A stretch of 24,000 nucleotides of DNA from an uncultured Thiotrichales bacterium (lineage in GTDB: Bacteria > Pseudomonadota > Gammaproteobacteria > PS1 > Pseudothioglobaceae): contig CAZDRI010000007.1 of NCBI GenBank assembly GCA_964508055.1, forward strand, positions 20,510 through 44,509, read 5' to 3'. Position numbers and translations under genes: made by a program. The notes below the pieces were generated by a model. That model had not been told where the DNA came from. It worked only from the letters and a program-made list of their open reading frames with translations, and searched no databases. This document shows, in pieces, positions 10,185 to 20,801 of the stretch; the first letter of the stretch is position 1, and every line of letters starts with the position of its first letter.

Positions 10185-11411
10185 ATGATAGATAAAATAA
10201 TCAGTTCAAGCCCTAAATCTATTAGCCTTATAGAACATTCCAAATTGCTAACAACAACAGCCGAGTCCTTATTAGCTCAGCATAATACTTTGGCGGAAAT
10301 AAATAATATAAAAAGAGAGTTAATAAAAAAAAATGATGAATCGCTAATATTTATTTTATTAGCGTTAAAAATTGCTAAATCTAAAATTTTTATCAATAGA
10401 ATAAAAAGACCTCTTAGCATCTCAGTAGTTTTTGCTGTTTATAAAGAGCATAATAGGATAAGAAAAATTAGTGAGCATCCTCATGGTGAAGATTTTCTCA
10501 ACATTAAAATGGAACAACTTAAATGGTTGTTTGCTGATAATAAAAATATTGACTGGCAGCTGATTGTGGTTGATGATGGTTGTCCTGAAAATAGTGGCAA
10601 AATAGCTCAAAGTATTATAGATAAAAATAATTTTGCAGATAAAGCCCAAGTCCTATATCTAAAAGATGCCATAAAACAAAAATTACCACCAGTTCAAGGT
10701 TTAAAAAGTGTTGATGATAGTAAAAAAGGCGGGGCAATCGCTTATGGAATGTGGCATAGTGTTCAACAAAATAGCTCAAAAAGACATATTGTAATTTATA
10801 CTGATGCTGATCTCTCCACCCATTTAGGACAGATAGGACTTTTAGCTAATCCTATTTTAAACCAAGGCAAACTAGCTGTAACCGGCTCACGACGCAGTTG
10901 GAACTCAATAGTAATAAAAAAAGAAAACAGAAATAAAAGAGGTAAACTTTTTATTTATTTGTGGAAAAGACTACTACCCTGTCTGCATAATATTGTTGAT
11001 ACTCAATGTGGCTTTAAGGGCTTTCGTGCTAACATAATATCAGACTTGACCAAAGATTTAATTGAGCGTCAATTCGCCTTTGATATTGAGTTATTACTTA
11101 AAACAAATCTAATAAAACATAATGGCGTTGATAAAATTGGTATTGCTTGGATTGATAGTGAGGAAGAGTCAACTACCAAAGAATTACAATCCTATTTACC
11201 AATGTTAAAAGCAATAGTAAAGATGTATAAAAAATACTGCATTAAAAACCCAAACTCAGATGAATTTGCCGCTTTTGTAGAATCGTTAACTGATGAAGAA
11301 TTTAATAATATTTTAGATAATGTACCAAAACCTATTTTGAAGAAAAAGCCTTTTAAGTTTACCAAATACGATAAAGTCAAAGTTGCCGATTTAGTTGAGC
11401 ATAAAAATTAA
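10185..11411 (+). CDS. GT2-family glycosyltransferase, ALG5 / polyprenyl-phosphate hexosyltransferase-like, with N- and C-terminal extensions
   Basis: 408-aa ORF. GT-A motifs 'LIVVDDGCPENSG', 'IVIYTDADLS' (DxD), 'DTQCGFKGF' and 'AFDIELL'. About 75 aa precede the catalytic core and about 80 aa follow it. Confidence 0.8.
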   Translation: MIDKIISSSPKSISLIEHSKLLTTTAESLLAQHNTLAEINNIKRELIKKNDESLIFILLALKIAKSKIFINRIKRPLSISVVFAVYKEHNRIRKISEHPHGEDFLNIKMEQLKWLFADNKNIDWQLIVVDDGCPENSGKIAQSIIDKNNFADKAQVLYLKDAIKQKLPPVQGLKSVDDSKKGGAIAYGMWHSVQQNSSKRHIVIYTDADLSTHLGQIGLLANPILNQGKLAVTGSRRSWNSIVIKKENRNKRGKLFIYLWKRLLPCLHNIVDTQCGFKGFRANIISDLTKDLIERQFAFDIELLLKTNLIKHNGVDKIGIAWIDSEEESTTKELQSYLPMLKAIVKMYKKYCIKNPNSDEFAAFVESLTDEEFNNILDNVPKPILKKKPFKFTKYDKVKVADLVEHKN

Positions 11412-12885: not shown

Positions 12886-12938
12886 TTCTATAAATTAGTC
12901 TAATATATAATGATAATTATATTATGTAGTTAGAATTT
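12886..12938. promoter_or_regulatory. 53-bp divergent intergenic region, presumed to hold the promoters for nnr and the eight-gene operon
   Basis: This is the only non-coding DNA upstream of the operon. It contains a perfect TATAAT at 12906-12911, 27 nt before the ATG at 12939. TTGCAT at 12880-12885 is a possible -35, but the 20-nt spacing to that TATAAT is poor. Confidence 0.3.
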
Positions 12939-13628
12939 ATGAGTAACAAATTATTAAAAACACTGCTAATAATTATAATAATTAGCGTTATTGGTGCTTT
13001 TTTTATTTTTGACTTAGATCAATATGCTACTCTTGATTATATTAAAAGCAAACAAAGCCTATTAACAAACTATTACAACGATAATACTTTATTAGTGCTT
13101 AGCTTTTTTGGGATATTATATGTAGTAGTAACTGCATTTTCCCTACCTATTGCTGCAGGTTTAACCTTACTTGGTGGTGCTTTATTTGGATTTATACCTG
13201 CTCTTATTATCGTATCATTTGCTAGTACTATTGGTGCTAGCTGTGCTTTTTTAATGGTAAGGTTTTTATTACATGATTCTATTCAAAAAAAATACGGTAA
13301 ATATCTCAAAAAGTTAAATGCAGGATTTAAAAAAGAAGGAACATTTTATTTATTTGCACTGCGCTTAGTGCCAATATTTCCGTTCTTTGTAATAAATATA
13401 TTAACTGCATTATTGCCTATTAGGTTAAGTGTATTCTACATAATAAGTCAAATAGGTATGTTGCCAGGCACAGCAGTATATGTGTTTGCTGGGACAGAGA
13501 TTGGTAAGATAAATTCTCTATCTGATATTTTATCTCCAACATTATTATTAGCTTTTGCCCTGCTTGGGATTTTTCCAATAATTGCAAAAAAGACATTATA
13601 TTTACTTAGGAAAAAATCAATAAAATGA
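12939..13628 (+). CDS. DedA / TVP38-TMEM64 (SNARE-associated) family membrane protein
   Basis: 229-aa ORF with multiple TM helices. Family motif 'FALRLVPIFPFFVINILTA'. ATGA overlap with the next ORF. Confidence 0.85.
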   Translation: MSNKLLKTLLIIIIISVIGAFFIFDLDQYATLDYIKSKQSLLTNYYNDNTLLVLSFFGILYVVVTAFSLPIAAGLTLLGGALFGFIPALIIVSFASTIGASCAFLMVRFLLHDSIQKKYGKYLKKLNAGFKKEGTFYLFALRLVPIFPFFVINILTALLPIRLSVFYIISQIGMLPGTAVYVFAGTEIGKINSLSDILSPTLLLAFALLGIFPIIAKKTLYLLRKKSIK

Positions 13629-13894
13629 AAAAATATGACTATAACTTAGTGATAATAGGAGCAGGCTCGGTTGGATTAGTAGTAGCATATGTAGCAGCTA
13701 TAGTTAAGGCAAAAGTTGCTTTGATTGAAAAACATAAAATGGGTGGTGATTATCTTAATAAAATACTTGCAACAATACACATCTATCCCACACTTACAGA
13801 AGCAAATAAATTTGTTGCAGCTGAATGGAAAAAGAAACACCCACCAGTATTTATTTTAAAATTGTTAGAAAAATTCCATAAACTAAGAAGATGA
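13625..13894 (+). pseudogene. Collapsed remnant (89 codons) of a class-I FAD-dependent pyridine-nucleotide-disulfide oxidoreductase
   Basis: The N-terminal FAD-binding Rossmann start 'YDYNLVIIGAGSVGLVVAYVAAIVKAKVALIEKHKMGGDYLN' runs straight into a C-terminal dimerisation-domain end, 'ILATIHIYPTLTEANKFVAAEWKKKH...'. The redox-active CxxxxC, the NAD(P)H domain and the central domain are absent. Y43 sits where the first redox Cys is expected (GGDCLN). Confidence 0.7.
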
Positions 13895-14844
13895 CCACAA
13901 CATTTGTTCAAAATTTAAGTAATCATAAGCTATATATAAAAAGAAATAGCATTTCAACTCTACAAATAAACATTGGCAAAAGGTGTAACCAAGCATGCCA
14001 TCACTGTCATGTAGAAGCTGGACCTAAAAGAGAAGAAAATATGGACTTAAAAACTATCAGTAGAATATTAGAGTTAGTTAATAAAACTCCAAGTATTAAA
14101 ACTGTTGATATAACCGGAGGTGCTCCTGAATTAAATCCACATTTCAGGCACTTTGTAGAAAATTCAAAAAAGCTAAATAAAAATATCATAGATAGATGTA
14201 ATCTAACAATTCTTTTAGAAAAAGGACAAGAGGATACAGCTTTATTTCTAGCAAAAAATAATGTTGAGATAATTGCATCACTGCCTTGTTATGAAGAAGA
14301 TAATGTAAATAAGCAACGGGGCAGGTATGTTTTTAATAAAAGTATTAAAGCCTTAAAAATATTAAATAGTATTGGTTATGGTAAAAAAGACAGTGATTTA
14401 ATTCTAAACTTAGTATACAACCCTGTAGGCGAGCACCTACCACCTGAACAACTTCAATTAGAACTAGATTATAAAAAAAGCCTGAAAGATAAATATAACA
14501 TAGAATTTAATAGTCTTTTTACTATTACTAATATGCCTATTAATCGTTATGCTCATAGTCTGAAACGCAATAATAAATATGATAATTATATGAAATTACT
14601 AATGGATAACTTTAATACTCAAGCAATTGATAATGTTATGTGTAAAAATCTTGTGTCCATAGCTTGGGATGGGGTTATATATGATTGTGATTTTAACCAA
14701 ATGTTAGACCTTAGCCTAAAGTCAAAAACTACAATATGGAATATCAAAGATTTTAATGATATTAGCAAGAACATTACCCTAGCAGATCATTGCTATGCTT
14801 GCACTGCTGGTTCAGGTAGCTCATGTACAGGAGTTTTAGTGTAA
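13891..14844 (+). CDS. arsS: ArsS-type radical SAM / Cys-rich-domain enzyme (arsenosugar biosynthesis radical SAM protein family, Cys variant)
   Basis: 317-aa ORF. Radical-SAM cluster motif C32-NQA-C36-HH-C39 within 'IGKRCNQACHHCHVEAGP'. C-terminal Cys-rich domain 'YDCDFNQ' and 'HCYACTAGSGSSCTG'. Adjacent to ArsM and the two associated transferase families. Confidence 0.85.
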   Translation: MTTTFVQNLSNHKLYIKRNSISTLQINIGKRCNQACHHCHVEAGPKREENMDLKTISRILELVNKTPSIKTVDITGGAPELNPHFRHFVENSKKLNKNIIDRCNLTILLEKGQEDTALFLAKNNVEIIASLPCYEEDNVNKQRGRYVFNKSIKALKILNSIGYGKKDSDLILNLVYNPVGEHLPPEQLQLELDYKKSLKDKYNIEFNSLFTITNMPINRYAHSLKRNNKYDNYMKLLMDNFNTQAIDNVMCKNLVSIAWDGVIYDCDFNQMLDLSLKSKTTIWNIKDFNDISKNITLADHCYACTAGSGSSCTGVLV

Positions 14845-15644
14845 TGTTTAATGAAATAGAATTAAGATTAGGGTCTTTTTTAGTAATGTTTGCATTAATA
14901 GCTATTATTGAAATTATTATCCCAAAACGAAAATTATCTGTAAAAAAATCTACTCGTTGGTTTAGAAATCTTTCAATAATATTACTTGATAGCCTTGCAG
15001 TAAGATTATTAATACCATTTACAACTGTAGGAGTAGCTGTTTATGCCCAAACAAATGCAATAGGTATTTTGCATCATTTAGCTATGCCACCATATTTACA
15101 TATAGTTTTTGCAATAATAATTCTTGATTTATTGATTTATATACAACATGTGGTTTTCCATTATGTGCCTATTTTATGGAGATTACACAAAATACATCAT
15201 ATAGACCAAGATTACGATGTAACTACCGGCTTAAGATTTCACCCAATAGAGATAATACTTTCTGTTTTAATAAAGTGCTTAGCAATATTAGCATTTGGTG
15301 TGCCATATCAAGGCGTTATTATTTTTGAAATTTTATTAAATTTAACTGCTATGTTTAATCACGGTAATATAAATATCCCTAAAAAATTAGATTCCTTCAT
15401 CCGTTTATTTATTGTTACTCCAGATATGCATAGAGTCCATCATTCAGTAATTAAAACAGAAACTAATTCTAACTTTGGTTTTAATTTATCAGTCTGGGAC
15501 AAAGTTTTTAAAACCTATAAAAAAAGCCCTGCTAAAGGTCATAACAATATGACTATAGGTCTTAAAGAATATCAAAACCCAGCTAAAACTAATTTATTAG
15601 AAATGCTATTAATACCATTTTATAACAAGGATAAAAATGAATAA
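14844..15644 (+). CDS. Fatty-acid hydroxylase / sterol desaturase superfamily integral membrane di-iron protein
   Basis: His boxes 'HVVFH', 'HKIHH' and 'HRVHH' with 4-5 TM helices. The start is placed at the ATG forming a TAATG junction with arsS (14842-14846). An in-frame upstream ATG at 14823 (ORF-track start) is the alternative. Confidence 0.8.
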   Translation: MFNEIELRLGSFLVMFALIAIIEIIIPKRKLSVKKSTRWFRNLSIILLDSLAVRLLIPFTTVGVAVYAQTNAIGILHHLAMPPYLHIVFAIIILDLLIYIQHVVFHYVPILWRLHKIHHIDQDYDVTTGLRFHPIEIILSVLIKCLAILAFGVPYQGVIIFEILLNLTAMFNHGNINIPKKLDSFIRLFIVTPDMHRVHHSVIKTETNSNFGFNLSVWDKVFKTYKKSPAKGHNNMTIGLKEYQNPAKTNLLEMLLIPFYNKDKNE

Positions 15645-16680
15645 AATAACTCAAAATGTTAAAGAATATTATGGTGAGATTTTAACTAATAAAGATGATT
15701 TAAAAACATCTGCTTGTTGTAATGTTGAAAACTCAAATCCTAATTTAGCAAAATATCTAGCTAATATTCATAGTGAAATAAAAAATAAATTTTATGGCTG
15801 CGGCTCACCTATTCCCAGTGCTTTAAAAGGCAAAACTGTGCTTGATTTAGGTTCTGGAACTGGTATGGATACCTATATTGTATCTCAGCTAGTAGGAAGT
15901 AAAGGTAAGGTTATAGGTATTGATATGACAGAAAATCAACTAAAAATAGCCAATAAATATGTTGATTATCATATGAATAAATTTGGTTACGAAAAACCAA
16001 ATATAAATTTTATTAAAGCTTATATTGAAGATTTAAAAGCTGTAGGCATTGAAAATAACTCAATAGATGTAGTGATTTCTAATTGTGTGATAAATTTAGC
16101 AGAAAGTAAAAACAAGGTATTTAATGAAATATTTAGAATATTAAAGCCAGGAGGAGAATTATATTTCTCTGATGTTTTTACTGATAGAAGAGTGCCAGAG
16201 CATTTAATTAATGATAAATTACTTTATGGTGAATGCTTAAGTGGGGCTTTATATATTGAAGATTTTAGAAGATTATTACAAAAAGCTGGTTTTTTAGATT
16301 ATCTAGTAGTAACTAAAAATGTTATTGATATTAAAGATAAAAGAATTAAAGAATTAGTAAGAGGTATAAAATTTTATTCTATTACTATTAGGACTTTTAA
16401 ATGTGATTTTGAAGATGCAAGTGAAGATTACGGGCATAAGGCAACTTATTTAGGAACTATTAATGATATGAGTGCTAATTTTACTTTAGATGATAAACAT
16501 AAGTTTTATAAAAATAAACCTTTAGCAATTAATGGCAATATTGCAAAAATACTTACTTTATCTAGATATAGTAAATATTTCAATATAGAAGGTGATTTTT
16601 CTACTCATTATGGTGCTTTTGAAAATAAAAATACTGATAGCAGTAGTAGCGAATGTGTAAGTTCTAACTGCTGTTCATAG
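15637..16680 (+). CDS. arsM: Arsenite S-adenosylmethionine methyltransferase (ArsM/AS3MT type)
   Basis: 347-aa ORF. SAM motif I 'VLDLGSGTGMD'. Cysteines in the ArsM pattern: C27/C28 ('SACC'), C55 ('YGCGSP'), C150 ('SNCVINL') and C200 ('GECLSGA'). Cys-rich C-terminal tail 'ECVSSNCCS'. 8-nt overlap with the upstream gene. Confidence 0.85.
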   Translation: MNKITQNVKEYYGEILTNKDDLKTSACCNVENSNPNLAKYLANIHSEIKNKFYGCGSPIPSALKGKTVLDLGSGTGMDTYIVSQLVGSKGKVIGIDMTENQLKIANKYVDYHMNKFGYEKPNINFIKAYIEDLKAVGIENNSIDVVISNCVINLAESKNKVFNEIFRILKPGGELYFSDVFTDRRVPEHLINDKLLYGECLSGALYIEDFRRLLQKAGFLDYLVVTKNVIDIKDKRIKELVRGIKFYSITIRTFKCDFEDASEDYGHKATYLGTINDMSANFTLDDKHKFYKNKPLAINGNIAKILTLSRYSKYFNIEGDFSTHYGAFENKNTDSSSSECVSSNCCS

Positions 16681-16689
16681 CTAGATATT

Positions 16690-17535
16690 ATGTTAGCAAT
16701 AATAGGTGGTACAGGTATATATAATATTGAAGGTATAAAAACTATTAAAAAAATAGCTATAGATACCCCTTTCGGTAAACCTTCAAGCAGTATAATAAAA
16801 GCAAATTATAAAGATAAAACTATACTTTTCCTACCACGTCATGGTGAAAATCATCAATACTTACCTCATGAGATAAATTACCAAGCTAATATATTTGCTT
16901 TAAAAAAATTAGGAGCAAAACAAATTTTAGGTTTTTCTGCTGCTGGTAGCCTTAGAGAAAATATCCATCCTGGAGATTTTGTTGTCCCAGCACAATATAT
17001 TGACTTCCTAAAATCTAATAGAAAACGAACTTTTTTTGGCGATGGTATTGCTGCCCATATATCCACTGCAATCCCTACTTGTGAAAATATTACCTCGTGG
17101 GCTAAAGATAAAGCTCAAACTATGAATATTAAATTACACACTAATAAAACTTATGTTTGTGTAGATGGTCCAAGACTTGGGACTAAAGCAGAAAGTAATT
17201 TTTTTCGCTCTATTGGTTGTGATGTAGTTGGTATGAGTAATGTGCCTGAAGTTTATTTAGCAAGAGAAGCACAAATTTGCTACGCTACAATATGCATAAT
17301 AACTGACTATGATTGCTGGATGGAAGATGAAAAATATCATGTAAGTGTAAAAGATGTCATCAGTCGCTATGGCGAAAGTATTAATAAAGCTAAAAAACTA
17401 TTATTAGCACTATTAGAAACCGATATTGCAAAAATTGATGAAGATTATCGTAAATCCCTAACTGATGCCATACTTACACCTTATGAATATTTAACAAAAG
17501 ATAAAAAAGATTTATTAGCTGTGCTTACTAAATGA
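16690..17535 (+). CDS. mtnP: MTAP-family (S-methyl-5'-thioadenosine-type) purine nucleoside phosphorylase
   Basis: 281-aa ORF with 'IIGGTGIY', 'FLPRHGENH', 'EINYQANIFALKKLG' and 'VVGMSNVPEVYLAREA'. It starts 9 nt after arsM and has an ATGA overlap with the next gene. Confidence 0.85.
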   Translation: MLAIIGGTGIYNIEGIKTIKKIAIDTPFGKPSSSIIKANYKDKTILFLPRHGENHQYLPHEINYQANIFALKKLGAKQILGFSAAGSLRENIHPGDFVVPAQYIDFLKSNRKRTFFGDGIAAHISTAIPTCENITSWAKDKAQTMNIKLHTNKTYVCVDGPRLGTKAESNFFRSIGCDVVGMSNVPEVYLAREAQICYATICIITDYDCWMEDEKYHVSVKDVISRYGESINKAKKLLLALLETDIAKIDEDYRKSLTDAILTPYEYLTKDKKDLLAVLTK

Positions 17536-18209
17536 TTAAACTTTCAATAATCATCCCATTAGCTAAAGATGATTTAACTTACAAAAAATTAATTCCTGAT
17601 TTAAAAAAATTAGCTAAAAATAATGAAATAATTTTCGTAAGCACTAAAGATAATAAAGAAAATAATAATATTTTAAAAATAAAAAATATCAAACTATTAA
17701 TAAGCAAGGCTGGTAGAGCAAAGTCTATGAATTATGGGGCTAACAAAGCAAGTGGTGAATACTTGTGGTTTTTACATGCTGATTCTAAATTTACAGAGAA
17801 TACTGTTAGCGAATTATTAAAAGCAATGCGTTATTACCCTGATTGTCTTATATATTTCCAACTTGGATTTTTAAATGATGCTATTAAATTAATAAAGATA
17901 AATGAATGGGGAGCTAATTTTAGGTCTAAAGTATTTAAAATACCTTTTGGTGATCAAGGCTTTTGTATTAAGAAAAGTCTATTTAAAAAAGCTGGTTCTT
18001 ATAATGAAAGTCTGAGCTATGGCGAAGACCATGTCTTTGTATGGCAAGTAAGGCAAAATAATATTAAATTACATGCTATTAACACTAAACTTTACACCAG
18101 TAGTAGAAAATATAAAAAACATGGTTGGCTCAAAACTACTTTTATACACCAATATTTATGGTTAAAACAAGCATACCCAGAATGGAAAAAACTACGAAAA
18201 ATAAAATAA
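17532..18209 (+). CDS. Small GT2-like glycosyltransferase of the radical-SAM/selenodomain-associated (arsenosugar-associated) type
   Basis: 225-aa ORF. GT-A start 'LSIIIPLAKD', acidic motif 'FLHADS', 'FGDQGFCIKKSLF' and 'GEDHVF'. By size and context it fits what I recall as TIGR04283. Confidence 0.75.
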   Translation: MIKLSIIIPLAKDDLTYKKLIPDLKKLAKNNEIIFVSTKDNKENNNILKIKNIKLLISKAGRAKSMNYGANKASGEYLWFLHADSKFTENTVSELLKAMRYYPDCLIYFQLGFLNDAIKLIKINEWGANFRSKVFKIPFGDQGFCIKKSLFKKAGSYNESLSYGEDHVFVWQVRQNNIKLHAINTKLYTSSRKYKKHGWLKTTFIHQYLWLKQAYPEWKKLRKIK

Positions 18210-18871
18210 ATATTGCTTTGGCTACTTTTGTAAAAACTCCTAATCTAAGTCCTATTAAGACAAGATTAGCAAAAGATATAAGTCATAAAAAGGCTATTAA
18301 ATTTTATGAACTAAGCTTAAATGCAATAAAAGAATTAATAAAAGAAATAATAGACTTAAAGATAGATTCTTACTGGGCTATTGCTGAAAAAAACGCCCTA
18401 CAATTAGCTATATGGTCTGATAATAAAACTATATGGACTGGTGAAGGGAACTTAGGAGAAAGATTAAATAATGTATATTGTTATCTGAAGAAAAAATATA
18501 AATTTGTGATTTTAATTGGTTCTGATAGCCCTCAATTAGACAAAGCAACTATTAAAAAAACAATATTAAAATTAAATGAAAATAATTGTATTATTGGCAA
18601 AAGTAAAGATGGCGGATTTTATCTTTTTGCATCTGGAGTAGATATTAAAAAAAGAGTTTTTACTAATGTAACTTATAGTGAAAATACAACTTTGCTTCAA
18701 TTAACAAGAAATCTAAAACAGCATAATATTAATATTAAATTTTTAAGCGAAAAAGTTGATGTGGATACCGCTTCTGATATAGGTTATTTATTAAGCGAAT
18801 TAAAAAACTTAACTCATATTAGCAACAAACAAAAAATATTATCCAAATGGCTGAAAAACTTAGACCTTTGA
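18182..18871 (+). CDS. DUF2064 transferase-like protein (CofC/MobA-like nucleotide-diphospho-sugar-transferase fold), radical-SAM/selenodomain-associated type
   Basis: 'IALATFVKTPNLSPIKTRLA' matches the family N-terminus (FAK.P..G.VKTRL). Also 'IGSDSPQL' and 'DGGFYLF'. The start is set at ATG 18182 (MEKTTKNKINIAL...). The ORF track's longest ORF begins at 18125, which would overlap the upstream gene by 85 nt. Confidence 0.75.
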   Translation: MEKTTKNKINIALATFVKTPNLSPIKTRLAKDISHKKAIKFYELSLNAIKELIKEIIDLKIDSYWAIAEKNALQLAIWSDNKTIWTGEGNLGERLNNVYCYLKKKYKFVILIGSDSPQLDKATIKKTILKLNENNCIIGKSKDGGFYLFASGVDIKKRVFTNVTYSENTTLLQLTRNLKQHNINIKFLSEKVDVDTASDIGYLLSELKNLTHISNKQKILSKWLKNLDL

Positions 18872-19889: not shown

Positions 19890-19964
19890 TGGCTGGGATG
19901 GCAGGATTCGAACCTGCGTGTGACGGGATCAAAACCCGTTGCCTTACCGCTTGGCGACATCCCA
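19890..19964 (-). tRNA. tRNA-Gln (anticodon UUG), CCA encoded
   Basis: The reverse complement folds by hand as a 75-nt cloverleaf: TGGGATG TC GCC AAGCGGTAA GGC A ACGGG TTTTGAT CCCGT CACAC GCAGG TTCGAAT CCTGC CATCCCA G CCA. The anticodon-loop centre is TTG. It closely resembles my recollection of E. coli tRNA-Gln. Confidence 0.95.
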
Positions 19965-20801
19965 ATAAATTGGTGATTTATCAATAGCTTTTTGAACATA
20001 ACCATTCCATTTGCTTGGTATTTTTTTTAATGATTTCTCCGCTTCAATTCTTTTTTTAAACTCAATAAATACACAAGACCCTGTGCCAGATAATCTTGCT
20101 TCTCCTATATAATTTTCACAGTTATTTAGCCAGTCAAGTGCTTCTTTTATATCACTTTGAATACTAATAGCTGCTGTAAGACAATCGTTATGTAAATCTA
20201 AGTTATTTTGATAAAAGTTTGATATTTTCAACTCTTGAGGTGTCATTGTCAATGCTTGGTGAGAGAAAATTTCTTTAGTTGAAATAGATTTATTGCTAAA
20301 AATTAATAAAAAATAATTACTATTTGTTTTTATTGGCACTAATTTATCACCTATACCTTCTGCCCAAGCTGTTTTGCAATTAATAAAAACAGGAACATCC
20401 GCACCTAAACTCAGCCCAAGTTTCATTAATTCTTTTTTGCTTAAATTTATTTGCCATAATTTATTTAATATAACTAAAGTTGTAGCACAGTTTGAGCTGC
20501 CGCCACCTAAACCTGCACCTATAGGGATTTTTTTATTTATCTTAATATCAGCACCTTTATTAGTATTAGTGTATTTTTGTAGTAGTTTTGCAGCTTTTAT
20601 AATTAAATCATCTTTTTCTTTTATATTTTCATTGCCTGATGTTCTTTTAACTTTGCCATCATCTCTAATATTAAAATAAAGTTCATCATATAAATCTATT
20701 AATTGAAAAACTGTTTGTAAACTATGATAACCATCTTCTCTTTTATTAATAATATGCAAAAATAAATTTATCTTTGCAGGCGATAAATATTTTTTAGACA
20801 T
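19944..20801 (-). CDS. ispE: 4-diphosphocytidyl-2-C-methyl-D-erythritol kinase
   Basis: 285-aa ORF. N-terminus 'SPAKINLFLHI' and GHMP-kinase motif 'PIGAGLGGGSSNCAT'. The last 6 codons plus stop (TGG GAT GTC GCC AAG CGG TAA) are the first 21 nt of tRNA-Gln. Confidence 0.93.
   Translation of the reverse strand: MSKKYLSPAKINLFLHIINKREDGYHSLQTVFQLIDLYDELYFNIRDDGKVKRTSGNENIKEKDDLIIKAAKLLQKYTNTNKGADIKINKKIPIGAGLGGGSSNCATTLVILNKLWQINLSKKELMKLGLSLGADVPVFINCKTAWAEGIGDKLVPIKTNSNYFLLIFSNKSISTKEIFSHQALTMTPQELKISNFYQNNLDLHNDCLTAAISIQSDIKEALDWLNNCENYIGEARLSGTGSCVFIEFKKRIEAEKSLKKIPSKWNGYVQKAIDKSPIYWDVAKR

What the first reader, a model, noticed from the sequence alone, without database searches (positions are those of the whole stretch)
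12939..18871. Eight-gene, translationally coupled radical-SAM / ArsM / MTAP / dual-transferase / membrane-hydroxylase operon: candidate complete arsenosugar(-lipid) pathway, mostly uncharacterised
Seen in sequence: eight same-strand ORFs span 5.9 kb. Their junctions are ATGA (13625-13628), ATGA (13891-13894), TAATG (14842-14846), an 8-nt overlap (15637-15644), a 9-nt gap (16681-16689), ATGA (17532-17535) and a 28-nt overlap (18182-18209). This reads as one coupled operon, bounded by divergent nnr and convergent prs. Motif-level calls are: an ArsS-type radical SAM enzyme (C32x3C36x2C39 plus C-terminal CYACTAGSGSSC), an ArsM-type methyltransferase (C27/C28, C55, C150, C200), MTAP, GT2, DUF2064, a His-box membrane hydroxylase, DedA and an oxidoreductase remnant. 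Established knowledge: ArsM methylates As(III). As I recall, ArsS-type enzymes were linked in cyanobacteria to transfer of the 5'-deoxyadenosyl moiety of SAM onto dimethylarsenite, the committed arsenosugar step. The two transferase families were first defined only by co-occurrence, as 'rSAM/selenodomain-associated' (TIGR04282/TIGR04283; accession numbers from memory). Inference: the other genes supply the unassigned downstream chemistry. That would cover adenine removal, activation and transfer of the arsenoribose to glycerol or a lipid, lipid modification and membrane handling. If so, this is a minimal version of the whole pathway in a streamlined genome.
Basis: partly seen in the sequence, partly recalled or inferred. 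Interest (0 to 1): 0.85.

Follow-up and report, generated by a model that had tools for sequence, protein, structure and literature searches.

The report
Compact arsenosugar-type biosynthesis operon
Seven intact genes plus one decayed gene in an uncultured low-GC gammaproteobacterium most likely turn arsenite into arsenic-bearing ribose sugars; databases already name this kind of gene cluster, but this compact copy gives a testable route for the unknown later steps.

Summary
Eight same-strand ORFs lie at 12939-18871 with exactly the stated junctions, between divergent nnr and convergent prs.

Family calls hold. ArsS, MTAP, TIGR04283 and TIGR04282 pass NCBIfam cut-offs. ArsM matches solved ArsM structures at 314-322 bits with all four catalytic cysteines. 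The hydroxylase and DedA pass Pfam.

The 89-aa ORF is an in-frame internal deletion of a 474-aa FAD oxidoreductase. It is decaying: a frameshift in a sister strain, and 10 nonsynonymous versus 1 synonymous codon changes.

Co-occurrence is real in both directions. Near ArsS: GT2 56%, DUF2064 50%, FADox 42%, DedA 35%, ArsM 29%, MTAP 12%, hydroxylase 8%. Of close MTAP relatives, 72% sit beside ArsS, GT2 or DUF2064.

New here:
- DUF2064, named a "glycosyltransferase", folds as a CofC/FbiD-type nucleotidyltransferase.
- GT2::DUF2064 fusions are common.
- The MTAP-GT2-DUF2064 triad also occurs without ArsS, next to an MTA-producing aminopropyltransferase.

Proposed route: ArsM, then ArsS (DDMAA), then MTAP (sugar-1-phosphate), then DUF2064 (NDP-sugar), then inverting GT2 (beta-riboside). 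Only the first two steps have precedent in other organisms.

NCBIfam already names the cluster type, so this is a new member of a known kind.

The parts
12886..12938 (.). 53-bp divergent intergenic region between nnr and the first operon gene. It is presumably the promoter region.
   Evidence: Coordinates, sequence. No promoter could be called above background. No Rfam element is present.
12939..13628 (+). DedA / VTT-domain membrane protein (229 aa, about 4 hydrophobic spans).
   Evidence: Pfam VTT_dom scores 79.7 bits against a cut-off of 33.9. A homologue lies within 5 kb of ArsS in 35% of loci. It is fused to the FAD oxidoreductase in 14 loci.
13625..13894 (+). 89-aa remnant (pseudogene) of a class-I pyridine-nucleotide-disulfide FAD oxidoreductase. 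It arose by in-frame deletion of about 385 codons.
   Evidence: Residues 1-45 match residues 1-45 of the 474-aa L002 protein at 71% identity. Residues 46-89 match residues 430-474. The redox motif GGDCLN has become GGDYLN. Against sister strain L082: 94.8% nt identity (neighbouring genes except ArsS 98.5-99.8%; ArsS 96.3%), a 1-nt frameshifting indel, and 10 nonsynonymous versus 1 synonymous codon differences. Fisher p = 0.008 against the other seven genes.
13891..14844 (+). ArsS-family radical SAM enzyme (317 aa).
   Evidence: TIGR04167 scores 448 bits against a cut-off of 300. Pfam finds Radical_SAM plus DUF3641. Motifs CX3CX2C (C32/36/39) and C301/C304/C312 are present. All family-invariant residues are kept.
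14844..15644 (+). Membrane di-iron His-box enzyme of the fatty-acid hydroxylase / sterol desaturase superfamily (266 aa).
   Evidence: Pfam FA_hydroxylase scores 95.3 bits against a cut-off of 31. The OlsE equivalog scores only 93 against 475. His boxes are H102xxxH106, H115xxHH119 and H196xxHH200, with 4 hydrophobic spans. Homologues recur beside ArsS in two different gene orders.
15637..16680 (+). ArsM-type As(III) SAM methyltransferase (347 aa).
   Evidence: It scores 322 bits to 5evj and 314 bits to 4fr0/4kw7, both solved ArsM structures, over residues 4-337. C27, C55, C150 and C200 align with the catalytic cysteines. It falls below NCBIfam cut-offs.
16690..17535 (+). MTAP-family 5'-deoxy-5'-substituted-adenosine phosphorylase (281 aa).
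   Evidence: TIGR01694 scores 288 bits against a cut-off of 274.85. It scores 224-227 bits to solved MTAPs. Catalytic residues are conserved relative to human MTAP, but F177 is Leu and S178 is Gly, a signature of the whole clade. 72% of close relatives lie beside ArsS, GT2 or DUF2064.
17532..18209 (+). TIGR04283-family GT2 glycosyltransferase (225 aa, soluble).
   Evidence: TIGR04283 scores 183.2 bits against a cut-off of 182. Pfam finds Glycos_transf_2. Conserved residues are R62, H82-A-D84, R131, G140-D141-Q142, E165-D166 and R192. A homologue lies within 5 kb of ArsS in 56% of loci.
18182..18871 (+). TIGR04282 / DUF2064 protein (229 aa; the alternative start at 18158 gives 237 aa). By fold it is a CofC/FbiD-like nucleotidyltransferase.
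   Evidence: TIGR04282 scores 135.4 bits against a cut-off of 134. Pfam finds DUF2064 and CofC. The AlphaFold2 model has pLDDT 95.7. After its own family structure 3CGX, Foldseek finds FbiD, 3-phosphoglycerate guanylyltransferase, CofC, KdsB, TarI, IspD and GlmU. No glycosyltransferase is in the top 50. Motifs KTRL, GxDxP, DGG and DxD are invariant.

Best explanation
This is an operon that converts arsenite into dimethylarsinoyl-ribosides (arsenosugars), possibly ending on a membrane lipid.

Proposed chain:
1. ArsM methylates As(III) twice to give DMAs(III). This is established for the family and inferred here.
2. ArsS uses SAM to put a 5'-deoxyadenosyl group on DMAs(III), giving 5'-deoxy-5'-dimethylarsinoyl-adenosine (DDMAA). 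This has been shown for ArsS in vitro and, with ArsM, in Synechocystis; it is inferred here from equivalog-level membership.
3. The MTAP-clade enzyme treats DDMAA as an arsenic analogue of methylthioadenosine. It phosphorolyses it to adenine plus 5-deoxy-5-dimethylarsinoyl-alpha-ribose-1-phosphate (inferred).
4. The DUF2064 protein is a nucleotidyltransferase, not a glycosyltransferase. It joins that sugar-1-phosphate to an NMP to make an NDP-arsenoribose (inferred from fold and motifs).
5. The GT2 enzyme belongs to an inverting family. It transfers the sugar to an acceptor, which could be glycerol, glycerol phosphate, phosphatidylglycerol or a polyprenyl phosphate. That gives the beta-riboside linkage found in natural arsenosugars (inferred).
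6. The His-box hydroxylase and the DedA protein act on or move the membrane-bound acceptor or product. This is the least supported step.

The FAD oxidoreductase that accompanies the cluster elsewhere has been lost here.
For: Family membership
- ArsS, MTAP, TIGR04283 and TIGR04282 pass curated cut-offs.
- ArsM scores 314-322 bits to solved ArsM structures, with its four cysteines.

Published chemistry
- ArsS adenosylates DMAs(III) to DDMAA (Cheng 2021, as described in PMC13598754, and PMC12159101).
- Synechocystis ArsS works with ArsM in the first arsenosugar steps (PMC8552651 citing Xue 2019).

Gene linkage
- Among 48 ArsS loci with at least 5 kb on each side, the share with each family within 5 kb is: GT2 56%, DUF2064 50%, FADox 42%, DedA 35%, ArsM 29%, MTAP 12%, hydroxylase 8%.
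- The same order DedA-FADox-ArsS-(DUF3179)-FAH-ArsM-MTAP-GT2-DUF2064 recurs in L002, L084/85 and L087. Where flanks and GC were compared (L002, 42% GC), neither matches the window.
- Reciprocal test: 18 of 25 metagenome loci holding a close MTAP relative have ArsS, GT2 or DUF2064 within 5 kb.

Step 4
- The DUF2064 model has pLDDT 95.7. Its nearest solved folds are guanylyl- and cytidylyl-transferases that act on phosphorylated substrates.
- GxDxP and DxD align with the corresponding Asp motifs of CofC.

Steps 4 and 5 act together
- 14 of the 150 nearest GT2 representatives are 408-562 aa long. Nine of 10 tested are GT2::DUF2064 fusions. Fusions also occur in L008 and L016.

Steps 3 to 5 form one module
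- The MTAP-GT2-DUF2064 triad also occurs without ArsS. In L128 and L131 it sits next to a membrane polyamine aminopropyltransferase, which produces MTA. In 7 loci it sits next to a different radical SAM enzyme.

Stereochemistry
- Arsenosugars are 5-dimethylarsinoyl-beta-D-ribofuranosides (PMC10456119, Table 3).
- From general knowledge: MTAP gives the alpha-1-phosphate, and CAZy family GT2 inverts.

Precedent (recalled from memory)
- In the mycobacterial methylthioxylose pathway, MTA goes to MTR-1-P, then to a nucleotide sugar, and the GT2 enzyme MtxS then transfers it to decaprenyl phosphate. Only the MtxS and MtxT steps were confirmed in papers I could read.

Genes are live
- The seven genes keep their family-invariant residues.
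- Against a sister strain they show 41 nonsynonymous versus 47 synonymous codon differences.
Against: - There are no experimental data for this locus or for any TIGR04282 or TIGR04283 protein. No paper characterising them was found.
- MTAP and the hydroxylase lie next to ArsS in only 12% and 8% of loci.
- No MtnN-type nucleosidase was found near ArsS in loci that lack MTAP.
- The triad occurs without ArsS or ArsM, so it is not specific to arsenic.
- NDP-activated ribofuranose donors are unusual.
- The acceptor is unknown. The GT2 structure model failed (pLDDT 34).
- ArsM is below NCBIfam cut-offs.
- The window holds no arsenic regulator, efflux gene or reductase.
- The MTAP 5'-substituent pocket (V233, V236, L237 equivalents) stays hydrophobic, although the dimethylarsinoyl group is polar.
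Confidence: 0.55

Rival explanations
1. The cluster makes an organoarsenical, but the later chemistry differs. DUF2064 activates the aglycone rather than the sugar. For example, it could activate a phosphoglycerate, phosphoenolpyruvate or glycerol phosphate, as CofC/FbiD do in F420 synthesis. GT2 or another enzyme then joins the pieces, or the sugar-1-phosphate is used directly.
For: The closest solved folds to DUF2064 are FbiD (phosphoenolpyruvate), 3-phosphoglycerate guanylyltransferase and CofC (2-phospholactate). All of these activate small three-carbon phospho-acids, not sugars. Arsenosugar aglycones are glycerol-derived.
Against: The GT2::DUF2064 fusions and the fixed MTAP-GT2-DUF2064 triad fit a donor-making and donor-using pair. 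A GT2 enzyme needs a nucleotide-activated or lipid-linked sugar donor, and nothing else in the operon could make one. Sugar and polyol nucleotidyltransferases (KdsB, TarI, IspD, GlmU, Glc-1-P cytidylyltransferase) come next in the fold list.
Confidence: 0.15
2. Only ArsM and ArsS act on arsenic. MTAP is there to clear inhibitory SAM by-products (5'-deoxyadenosine, MTA). GT2, DUF2064, the hydroxylase and DedA serve an unrelated envelope glycosylation or lipid function that merely travels with the cluster.
For: MTAP-type enzymes are known to salvage 5'-deoxyadenosine from radical SAM reactions (abstracts of PMC10986504 and PMC8102628, seen). ArsS is found alone or with only ArsM in many loci: 16 alone and 11 with ArsM only, out of 80.
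Against: MTAP is tied more tightly to GT2 and DUF2064 than to ArsS. Gaps are 20-150 bp, and the triad persists without ArsS. ArsS-GT2-DUF2064 is the commonest multi-gene architecture. ArsS consumes the deoxyadenosyl radical into its product, so 5'-deoxyadenosine is only a side product.
Confidence: 0.12
3. The physiological substrate is not arsenic, or not only arsenic. The ArsS-type enzyme adenosylates another soft nucleophile, such as a methylated antimony, selenium or sulfur species. The product would then be a different 5-substituted ribose glycoconjugate.
For: Most ArsS loci lack a nearby ArsM: 71% of the 48 eligible loci. The triad works with other SAM-cleaving partners. The family was first defined by its link to selenoproteins (JGI names).
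Against: This window has an ArsM with all four As(III)-binding cysteines inside the operon. At least three ArsM lineages have been recruited next to ArsS independently. The only ArsS studied uses DMAs(III).
Confidence: 0.1
4. The adjacency is chance packing in a very gene-dense genome. The genes do not work together.
For: Tight or overlapping junctions are common throughout the window.
Against: The same gene set and order recur in other proteobacterial assemblies. Where flanks and GC were compared (L002, 42% GC), neither matches the window. Fusions also link members.
Confidence: 0.02

Closest known systems
Synechocystis sp. PCC 6803 ArsM + ArsS, the first steps of arsenosugar synthesis (Xue et al. 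2019; Cheng et al. 2021)
   Same: There is an ArsM with the four catalytic cysteines and an ArsS with CX3CX2C plus the Cys-rich DUF3641 domain, encoded in one cluster. ArsS passes the equivalog model built around that enzyme.
   Different: Only those two steps are described in the papers I could read. This operon adds MTAP, a nucleotidyltransferase-like protein, a GT2, a His-box hydroxylase and DedA. The host is a non-cyanobacterial gammaproteobacterium. The ArsM here does not reach the cut-off of the NF038099 'arsenosugar ArsM' model (115 bits against 400).
NCBIfam 'arsenosugar biosynthesis' set (TIGR04167 ArsS, TIGR04283 and TIGR04282 'glycosyltransferases', NF038099 ArsM)
   Same: Three of the four models are passed. 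ArsS-GT2-DUF2064 adjacency is the commonest architecture.
   Different: The names rest on co-occurrence only. Here TIGR04282 looks like a nucleotidyltransferase by fold. MTAP, the hydroxylase and DedA(-FADox) are additional linked members that these names do not cover.
Mycobacterial methylthioxylose (MTX) capping pathway (Rv0535-Rv0541c; Angala et al. 2017)
   Same: It works alike, as I recall the published model. A SAM-derived 5'-substituted 5'-deoxyadenosine (MTA) is phosphorolysed, nucleotide-activated, and transferred by a small GT2 (MtxS, Rv0539). The MtxS and MtxT roles were confirmed in PMC12088412 and PMC8780516. The L128 and L131 triads beside an aminopropyltransferase look like this chemistry.
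   Different: This operon has no C-3 epimerase and no GT-C transferase, which is consistent with a ribo-configured sugar. Homology of the window GT2 and DUF2064 to Rv0539 and Rv0540 could not be tested, because the sequences and the paper were not available.
CofC / FbiD and 3-phosphoglycerate guanylyltransferase (F420 biosynthesis)
   Same: These are the nearest solved folds outside DUF2064's own family, with Foldseek E from 6e-9 to 3e-8 and TM about 0.65-0.74. The Asp-containing motifs are shared with CofC, and a KTRL motif is invariant in the DUF2064 family. Pfam CofC is passed at 28.6 bits against 22.
   Different: Sequence identity is only 12-19%. The NCBIfam CofC model is not passed (21 bits against 105). 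The genomic partners are ArsS, MTAP and GT2, not F420 genes.
Arsinothricin cluster arsQML (ArsL radical SAM + ArsM)
   Same: It pairs a C-As bond-forming radical SAM enzyme with an ArsM.
   Different: ArsL transfers the 3-amino-3-carboxypropyl group, not 5'-deoxyadenosyl. There is no MTAP, GT2 or DUF2064. The window radical SAM is ArsS by model score, not ArsL.

Membership tests
ArsS (TIGR04167, arsenosugar radical SAM) | Whole-protein score at or above the equivalog cut-off | tested here: met
   448 bits against a cut-off of 300.
ArsS (TIGR04167, arsenosugar radical SAM) | CX3CX2C cluster motif plus the C-terminal Cys-rich DUF3641 domain | tested here: met
   C32/C36/C39 and C301/C304/C312 are present. 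Pfam DUF3641 scores 186.7 bits. All invariant columns of alignment A1 are kept.
ArsS (TIGR04167, arsenosugar radical SAM) | Adenosylation of DMAs(III) to DDMAA | not testable with these tools
   Shown for ArsS in vitro (Cheng 2021, per PMC13598754).
ArsM (As(III) SAM methyltransferase) | Full-length similarity to biochemically and structurally characterised ArsM, with the four catalytic cysteines | tested here: met
   322 bits to 5evj and 314 bits to 4fr0 over residues 4-337. C27, C55, C150 and C200 align.
ArsM (As(III) SAM methyltransferase) | NCBIfam cut-offs (PRK11873 263; NF038099 arsenosugar ArsM 400) | tested here: not met
   Scores are 201.9 and 115 bits. Three ArsMs next to ArsS in other phyla also fail, so the cut-offs are narrow.
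MTAP (TIGR01694) | Score at or above the cut-off, with phosphate-, ribose- and base-binding residues present | tested here: met
   288 bits against 274.85. The equivalents of T18, R60, H61, H65, P69, A94, M196, D220 and D222 are conserved. The human reference sequence was verified as identical to 1CB0.
MTAP (TIGR01694) | Canonical GPRFS segment (human F177, S178) | tested here: not met
   The segment reads GPRLG in the window and in 34-35 of 35 cluster-linked relatives. The functional meaning is unknown.
TIGR04283 (GT2 'arsenosugar glycosyltransferase') | Score at or above the cut-off, GT2 domain, and adjacency to ArsS | tested here: met
   183.2 bits against 182, which is marginal. Pfam Glycos_transf_2 is found. 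A homologue is within 5 kb of ArsS in 56% of loci.
TIGR04283 (GT2 'arsenosugar glycosyltransferase') | GT-A fold with an acidic metal/nucleotide motif | tested here: inconclusive
   H82-A-D84 and E165-D166 are conserved. The single-sequence model failed (pLDDT 34), and there is no PDB sequence hit.
TIGR04282 (DUF2064 'arsenosugar glycosyltransferase') | Score at or above the cut-off | tested here: met
   135.4 bits against 134, which is marginal. 3CGX matches with E 1e-9 for the single sequence and 9e-27 for the profile.
TIGR04282 (DUF2064 'arsenosugar glycosyltransferase') | Being a glycosyltransferase, as the name says | tested here: not met
   Apart from the family's own unassigned structure 3CGX, the listed matches with an assigned function are nucleotidyltransferases, and none of the 50 is a glycosyltransferase. 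Asp motifs shared with the nucleotidyltransferase CofC are conserved.
Fatty-acid hydroxylase superfamily (PF04116) | His boxes and membrane spans; Pfam gathering score | tested here: met
   95.3 bits against 31. Boxes are HX3H, HX2HH and HX2HH, with 4 hydrophobic spans.
OlsE ornithine-lipid hydroxylase (NF052566) | Equivalog cut-off | tested here: not met
   93.5 bits against 475.
Class-I pyridine-nucleotide-disulfide oxidoreductase (PRK06370 type) | Full-length protein with the redox-active CxxxxC motif and a dimerisation domain | tested here: not met
   Only residues 1-45 and 430-474 remain. The cysteine has become Tyr, and the ORF is decaying.
MTX-type 'MTAP, nucleotidyltransferase, GT2' sugar-donor pathway | The three enzyme types are encoded together | tested here: met
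   MTAP-GT2-DUF2064 are contiguous here and in many loci.
MTX-type 'MTAP, nucleotidyltransferase, GT2' sugar-donor pathway | Homology to Rv0539 and Rv0540; presence of an epimerase and a GT-C transferase | not tested
   The sequences were not obtainable. No epimerase or GT-C gene lies in the operon.

The most novel reading that the evidence does not exclude
The operon encodes the whole, so far unknown route after DDMAA: phosphorolysis by a dedicated MTAP clade, nucleotide activation by DUF2064, and inverting transfer by GT2. Membrane steps by a di-iron hydroxylase and a DedA protein then follow, yielding arsenosugar (phospho)lipids in a non-photosynthetic planktonic gammaproteobacterium.

That would name bacteria other than cyanobacteria and algae as a source of oceanic arsenolipids. 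It would also define a general 'MTAP-nucleotidyltransferase-GT2' module that turns SAM-derived 5'-deoxyadenosines (DDMAA, MTA and others) into glycosyl donors.
Probability: 0.3. Interest if true: 0.8.

Novelty: new member of a known kind. Interest (0 to 1): 0.55.

Why it matters
How arsenosugars are made after the adenosylation step has been open since the pathway was first proposed in the 1980s. The papers I could search report enzymes only for the first two steps.

This operon is a small, intact, intron-free candidate set of about 5.9 kb that could be expressed as one piece. The comparative evidence gathered here gives specific, falsifiable assignments for three further steps. It also corrects a database name: TIGR04282 is likely a nucleotidyltransferase.

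Arsenosugar phospholipids dominate the arsenolipid pool of the surface ocean, and a bacterial source has been suspected (bioRxiv 10.1101/2021.03.22.436501). A carrier related to Candidatus Thioglobus would fit that suspicion, but the habitat of this organism was not established.

Tried and rejected
- **Promoters, terminators, RNA elements.** The promoter and terminator scan gave no signal above shuffles in this AT-rich DNA. Rfam found only tRNA-Gln.
- **Clustering of ArsS neighbours.** Single-linkage BLAST clustering merged families through fusion ORFs and antisense shadow ORFs. I replaced it with per-family profile HMMs.
- **GT2 structure.** AlphaFold2 from a single sequence failed (pLDDT 33.7), so it was not used. 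The protein has no PDB sequence relative.
- **Solved structures.** No solved structure matches the hydroxylase. ArsS matches only the YydG radical-SAM core domain.
- **Nucleosidase near ArsS.** A search for a Pfs/MtnN nucleosidase in loci lacking MTAP found nothing.
- **Narrow ArsM cut-offs.** I tested whether failing NF038099 sets this ArsM apart. It does not: ArsMs beside ArsS in Binatia, Nitrospirales and Caldimonas fail as well.
- **Flank synteny.** None was found with the closest clusters, so the host could not be identified that way. The species is not among the GTDB representative genomes.
- **Literature.** Xue 2019, Angala 2017 and Palcekova 2024 are not held. My last search was wasted because 'MtxS' matched 'MTXs'.
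- **MTAP pocket.** I considered whether the MTAP 5'-pocket had turned polar to fit an As=O group. It has not.

Full report
**Observation.** The window (24 kb, 27-34% GC throughout) holds eight consecutive + strand ORFs from 12939 to 18871. The last depends on the start chosen for gene 8. Public gene calls use ATG 18158 rather than 18182.

The block is bounded by nnr on the opposite strand, 53 bp upstream, and by convergent prs, 32 bp downstream. The cysteine motifs quoted for ArsS and ArsM are at the stated residues.

One caution applies. The window is about 92% coding, and six of the ten other same-strand junctions are also 11 nt or less. Tight spacing is therefore a property of this genome and is not by itself evidence for an operon. 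Promoter and terminator scans gave nothing above shuffled sequence, and Rfam found only tRNA-Gln.

**Identity of the genes.** Against NCBIfam:
- ArsS scores 448 bits (cut-off 300).
- MTAP scores 288 (274.85).
- The GT2 scores 183.2 on TIGR04283 (182).
- The DUF2064 protein scores 135.4 on TIGR04282 (134).

NCBIfam already describes the last two as 'arsenosugar biosynthesis glycosyltransferase' and the first as 'arsenosugar biosynthesis radical SAM (seleno)protein ArsS'.

ArsM falls below the NCBIfam cut-offs (202 against 263; 115 against 400 for the 'arsenosugar ArsM' exception model). It nevertheless aligns over residues 4-337 with solved ArsM structures at 314-322 bits, and C27, C55, C150 and C200 sit on the catalytic cysteines. 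Three ArsMs that sit beside ArsS in other phyla fail the same cut-offs, so that failure carries no information.

The hydroxylase passes Pfam FA_hydroxylase (95 bits), has three His boxes and four hydrophobic spans, and is not an OlsE equivalog. The first gene is a DedA/VTT-domain membrane protein.

**The 89-aa ORF.** Residues 1-45 match the first 45 residues of a 474-aa FAD oxidoreductase (PRK06370 type, 497 bits) that sits between DedA and ArsS in locus L002. Residues 46-89 match its last 45 residues. It is therefore an in-frame deletion of about 385 codons that removed the catalytic core. The first cysteine of the redox motif (GGDCLN) is Tyr here.

A sister strain carries the same cluster at 98.5-99.8% nucleotide identity for the neighbouring genes, apart from ArsS at 96.3% (L082, on a 951-kb contig). 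There the remnant is the most diverged segment (94.8%). It has a 1-nt indel that shifts its tail, and it shows 10 nonsynonymous against 1 synonymous codon difference. The seven other genes together show 41 against 47 (Fisher p = 0.008). The remnant is a decaying pseudogene, and the other seven genes are under purifying selection.

**Host.** The flanks are rnr, purA, a tRNA-synt_His-domain gene (probably hisZ), hflC, hflK, an ABC transporter, nnr, prs, tRNA-Gln, ispE, orn and trpD. By general knowledge this is a gamma- or betaproteobacterial arrangement.

PurA has a 99% match in the same species. The next matches are about 70% identical, and the named ones are Candidatus Thioglobus sp. and 'Gammaproteobacteria bacterium'. 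The species is not among the GTDB representatives. Its habitat was not established.

**Is the gene set conserved?** ArsS has at least 8000 relatives at E <= 1e-20, in Alphaproteobacteria, Bdellovibrionota, Chlamydiota, Clostridia and others.

I fetched 80 ArsS loci from reference genomes and scored the neighbours with family profiles. Among the 48 loci with at least 5 kb on both sides, the share with each family within 5 kb was:
- GT2: 56%
- DUF2064: 50%
- FAD oxidoreductase: 42%
- DedA: 35%
- ArsM: 29%
- MTAP: 12%
- hydroxylase: 8%

The commonest architectures are ArsS-GT2-DUF2064, ArsM-ArsS, and ArsS-DedA-FADox-GT2-DUF2064. DedA and the oxidoreductase are one fused ORF in 14 loci.

The full order DedA-FADox-ArsS-DUF3179-FAH-ArsM-MTAP-GT2-DUF2064 occurs in three settings: L002 (a MAG labelled Methylophilaceae, 42% GC), L084/L085 (on a 621-kb groundwater contig) and L087. 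For L002, where flanks were compared, they are unrelated to those of the window. L002 additionally has an ECF sigma factor, an NrsF-type anti-sigma and a PiT phosphate transporter upstream.

Compared with these relatives, the window copy lacks DUF3179 and the working oxidoreductase; it also lacks the transporter and regulators seen in L002. Its GC content equals that of its flanks, so it is not a recent arrival.

**MTAP is a dedicated member.** Forward co-occurrence is low, so I ran the reciprocal test. Scanning metagenomes with the window MTAP returned 77 loci. Of the 25 with at least 3 kb on each side, 18 have ArsS, GT2 or DUF2064 within 5 kb. Usually GT2 or DUF2064 lies within 20-150 bp.

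The clade keeps the catalytic residues of human MTAP; the reference sequence was verified as identical to 1CB0. It replaces F177 and S178 by Leu and Gly in 34-35 of 35 linked copies. The hydrophobic 5'-pocket residues are unchanged.

**DUF2064 is probably not a glycosyltransferase.** An AlphaFold2 model built on a 54-sequence alignment has pLDDT 95.7. In Foldseek against the PDB, the hits after the family's own unassigned structure 3CGX are:
- FbiD/Rv2983, a phosphoenolpyruvate guanylyltransferase
- 3-phosphoglycerate guanylyltransferase
- CofC
- then KdsB, TarI, IspD, GlmU and glucose-1-phosphate cytidylyltransferase

No glycosyltransferase appears in the first 50 hits. A family profile aligns its GaDsP and DvDt motifs with aDlP and DiDe of CofC. 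K18, K26-T27-R28-L29, D115, D143-G-G and D193/D195 are invariant. From memory, the aspartates correspond to the metal ligands of FbiD. These enzymes join a phosphate-bearing substrate to an NMP and release pyrophosphate.

**GT2 and DUF2064 work as a pair.** They are fused in L008 and L016. Among the 150 nearest 50%-identity representatives of the window GT2, 14 are 408-562 aa long. Nine of the ten I scanned carry GT2 at the N-terminus and DUF2064 at the C-terminus.

**The triad is a general module.** MTAP-GT2-DUF2064 also occurs without ArsS, in two contexts:
- In L128 and L131 it lies between carotenoid genes and a 530-aa membrane polyamine aminopropyltransferase, an enzyme whose by-product is methylthioadenosine.
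- In seven other loci it faces a 307-aa radical SAM enzyme that is not ArsS.

The GT2 and DUF2064 proteins of these triads fall just under the TIGR04283 and TIGR04282 cut-offs. The common factor is a partner that makes a 5'-substituted 5'-deoxyadenosine from SAM.

**Mechanism proposed.**
1. ArsM makes DMAs(III).
2. ArsS makes DDMAA. This chemistry was shown for ArsS in vitro (PMC13598754; PMC12159101), and ArsS works with ArsM in Synechocystis (PMC8552651).
3. MTAP cleaves DDMAA with phosphate to adenine and the alpha-ribose-1-phosphate analogue.
4. DUF2064 makes the NDP-sugar.
5. GT2 transfers it with inversion.

By general knowledge, MTAP gives the alpha-anomer and CAZy family GT2 inverts, which predicts a beta-riboside. 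Natural arsenosugars and arsenosugar lipids contain 5-dimethylarsinoyl-beta-D-ribofuranose (PMC10456119, Table 3).

Because C-5 carries arsenic, PRPP-type activation is impossible, which makes nucleotide activation at C-1 the logical alternative (inference).

The same logic has been proposed for the methylthioxylose cap of mycobacterial lipoarabinomannan (Angala 2017, recalled from memory; the paper is not held). Papers I could read confirm only that the GT2 enzyme MtxS (Rv0539) makes decaprenyl-phospho-MTX and that MtxT (Rv0541c) transfers it.

Steps 3 to 5 are inference. The acceptor is unknown. Phosphatidylglycerol would give arsenosugar phospholipids directly, since their head group is a glycerol-phospho-arsenoriboside. 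A polyprenyl phosphate would parallel MtxS.

The roles of the hydroxylase and DedA are the weakest part. They recur beside ArsS in two different orders: FAH after ArsS, or FAH-DedA before it, as in Thioalkalivibrio L081. That supports linkage but says nothing about chemistry.

The lost oxidoreductase may elsewhere supply reducing power, for example by keeping DMAs reduced or reducing ArsM disulfides. That is speculation.

**Comparison with what is known, and verdict.** The cluster type is already recognised by annotation models, and papers repeat those labels (PMC8801600, PMC13077682). I found no paper that characterises TIGR04282, TIGR04283, or any step after DDMAA.

The window is therefore a new, unusually compact member of a known kind. 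What this analysis adds:
- a dedicated MTAP clade
- a nucleotidyltransferase fold for TIGR04282
- frequent GT2::DUF2064 fusions
- ArsS-independent triads
- a decaying oxidoreductase

Interest is moderate to fairly high. The locus makes an old open question directly testable, but the same test could be run on many other genomes.

Noticed in passing
L128:4806-13796 and L131 (same layout): An MTAP-GT2-DUF2064 triad without ArsS sits between carotenoid genes and a 530-aa membrane polyamine aminopropyltransferase. The carotenoid genes are a lycopene cyclase, a polyprenyl synthase and a CrtI::CrtB fusion. This could be a methylthio-pentose glycosylation system.
   Followed up: partly
L086:10001-13025; also L088, L107, L126, L135, L111, L133: The same triad faces a convergent 307-aa radical SAM enzyme that is not ArsS. 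Its best NCBIfam hit is the Rv1681 family at 91 bits, against only 67 bits for TIGR04167. In L086 a P450 and a Cys/Met PLP enzyme lie nearby. The partner chemistry is unknown.
   Followed up: partly
window 14696-14790 (ArsS residues 273-299): Twelve of the 15 amino-acid differences between this ArsS and the sister-strain copy (L082) fall in a 27-residue stretch of the C-terminal domain. ArsS is also the most diverged intact gene (96.3% nt identity). This could be a variable loop or a recombination tract.
   Followed up: no
window 19944-19964: The last seven codons of the ispE ORF (19944-20801, - strand) overlap the 5' end of tRNA-Gln (19890-19964, - strand) by 21 nt.
   Followed up: no
window 10185-11411 (+): This 408-aa ORF has only a faint Glycos_transf_2 match (26 bits) and no NCBIfam family. 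It is conserved in the sister strain and lies just upstream of nnr. No link to the operon was shown.
   Followed up: partly
L002:5469-7891 and L002:10927-11910: The fuller relative of the cluster carries an ECF sigma factor, an NrsF-type anti-sigma and a PHO4/PiT phosphate transporter upstream, the transporter being a possible arsenate entry route. A DUF3179 gene lies between ArsS and the hydroxylase. PiT recurs near ArsS in 7 loci, and DUF3179 in 6.
   Followed up: partly
L004, L005, L032, L035, L044 and 9 further loci: DedA and the FAD oxidoreductase are a single fused ORF of about 700 aa next to ArsS. This suggests a membrane-anchored reductase whose substrate is unknown.
   Followed up: no
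window 16690-17535 (residues 160-164): The cluster-linked MTAP clade reads GPRLG where human MTAP and the metagenomic MTAP 4GLF have GPRFS / GPQFS. The change is nearly invariant in 35 linked copies.
   Followed up: partly
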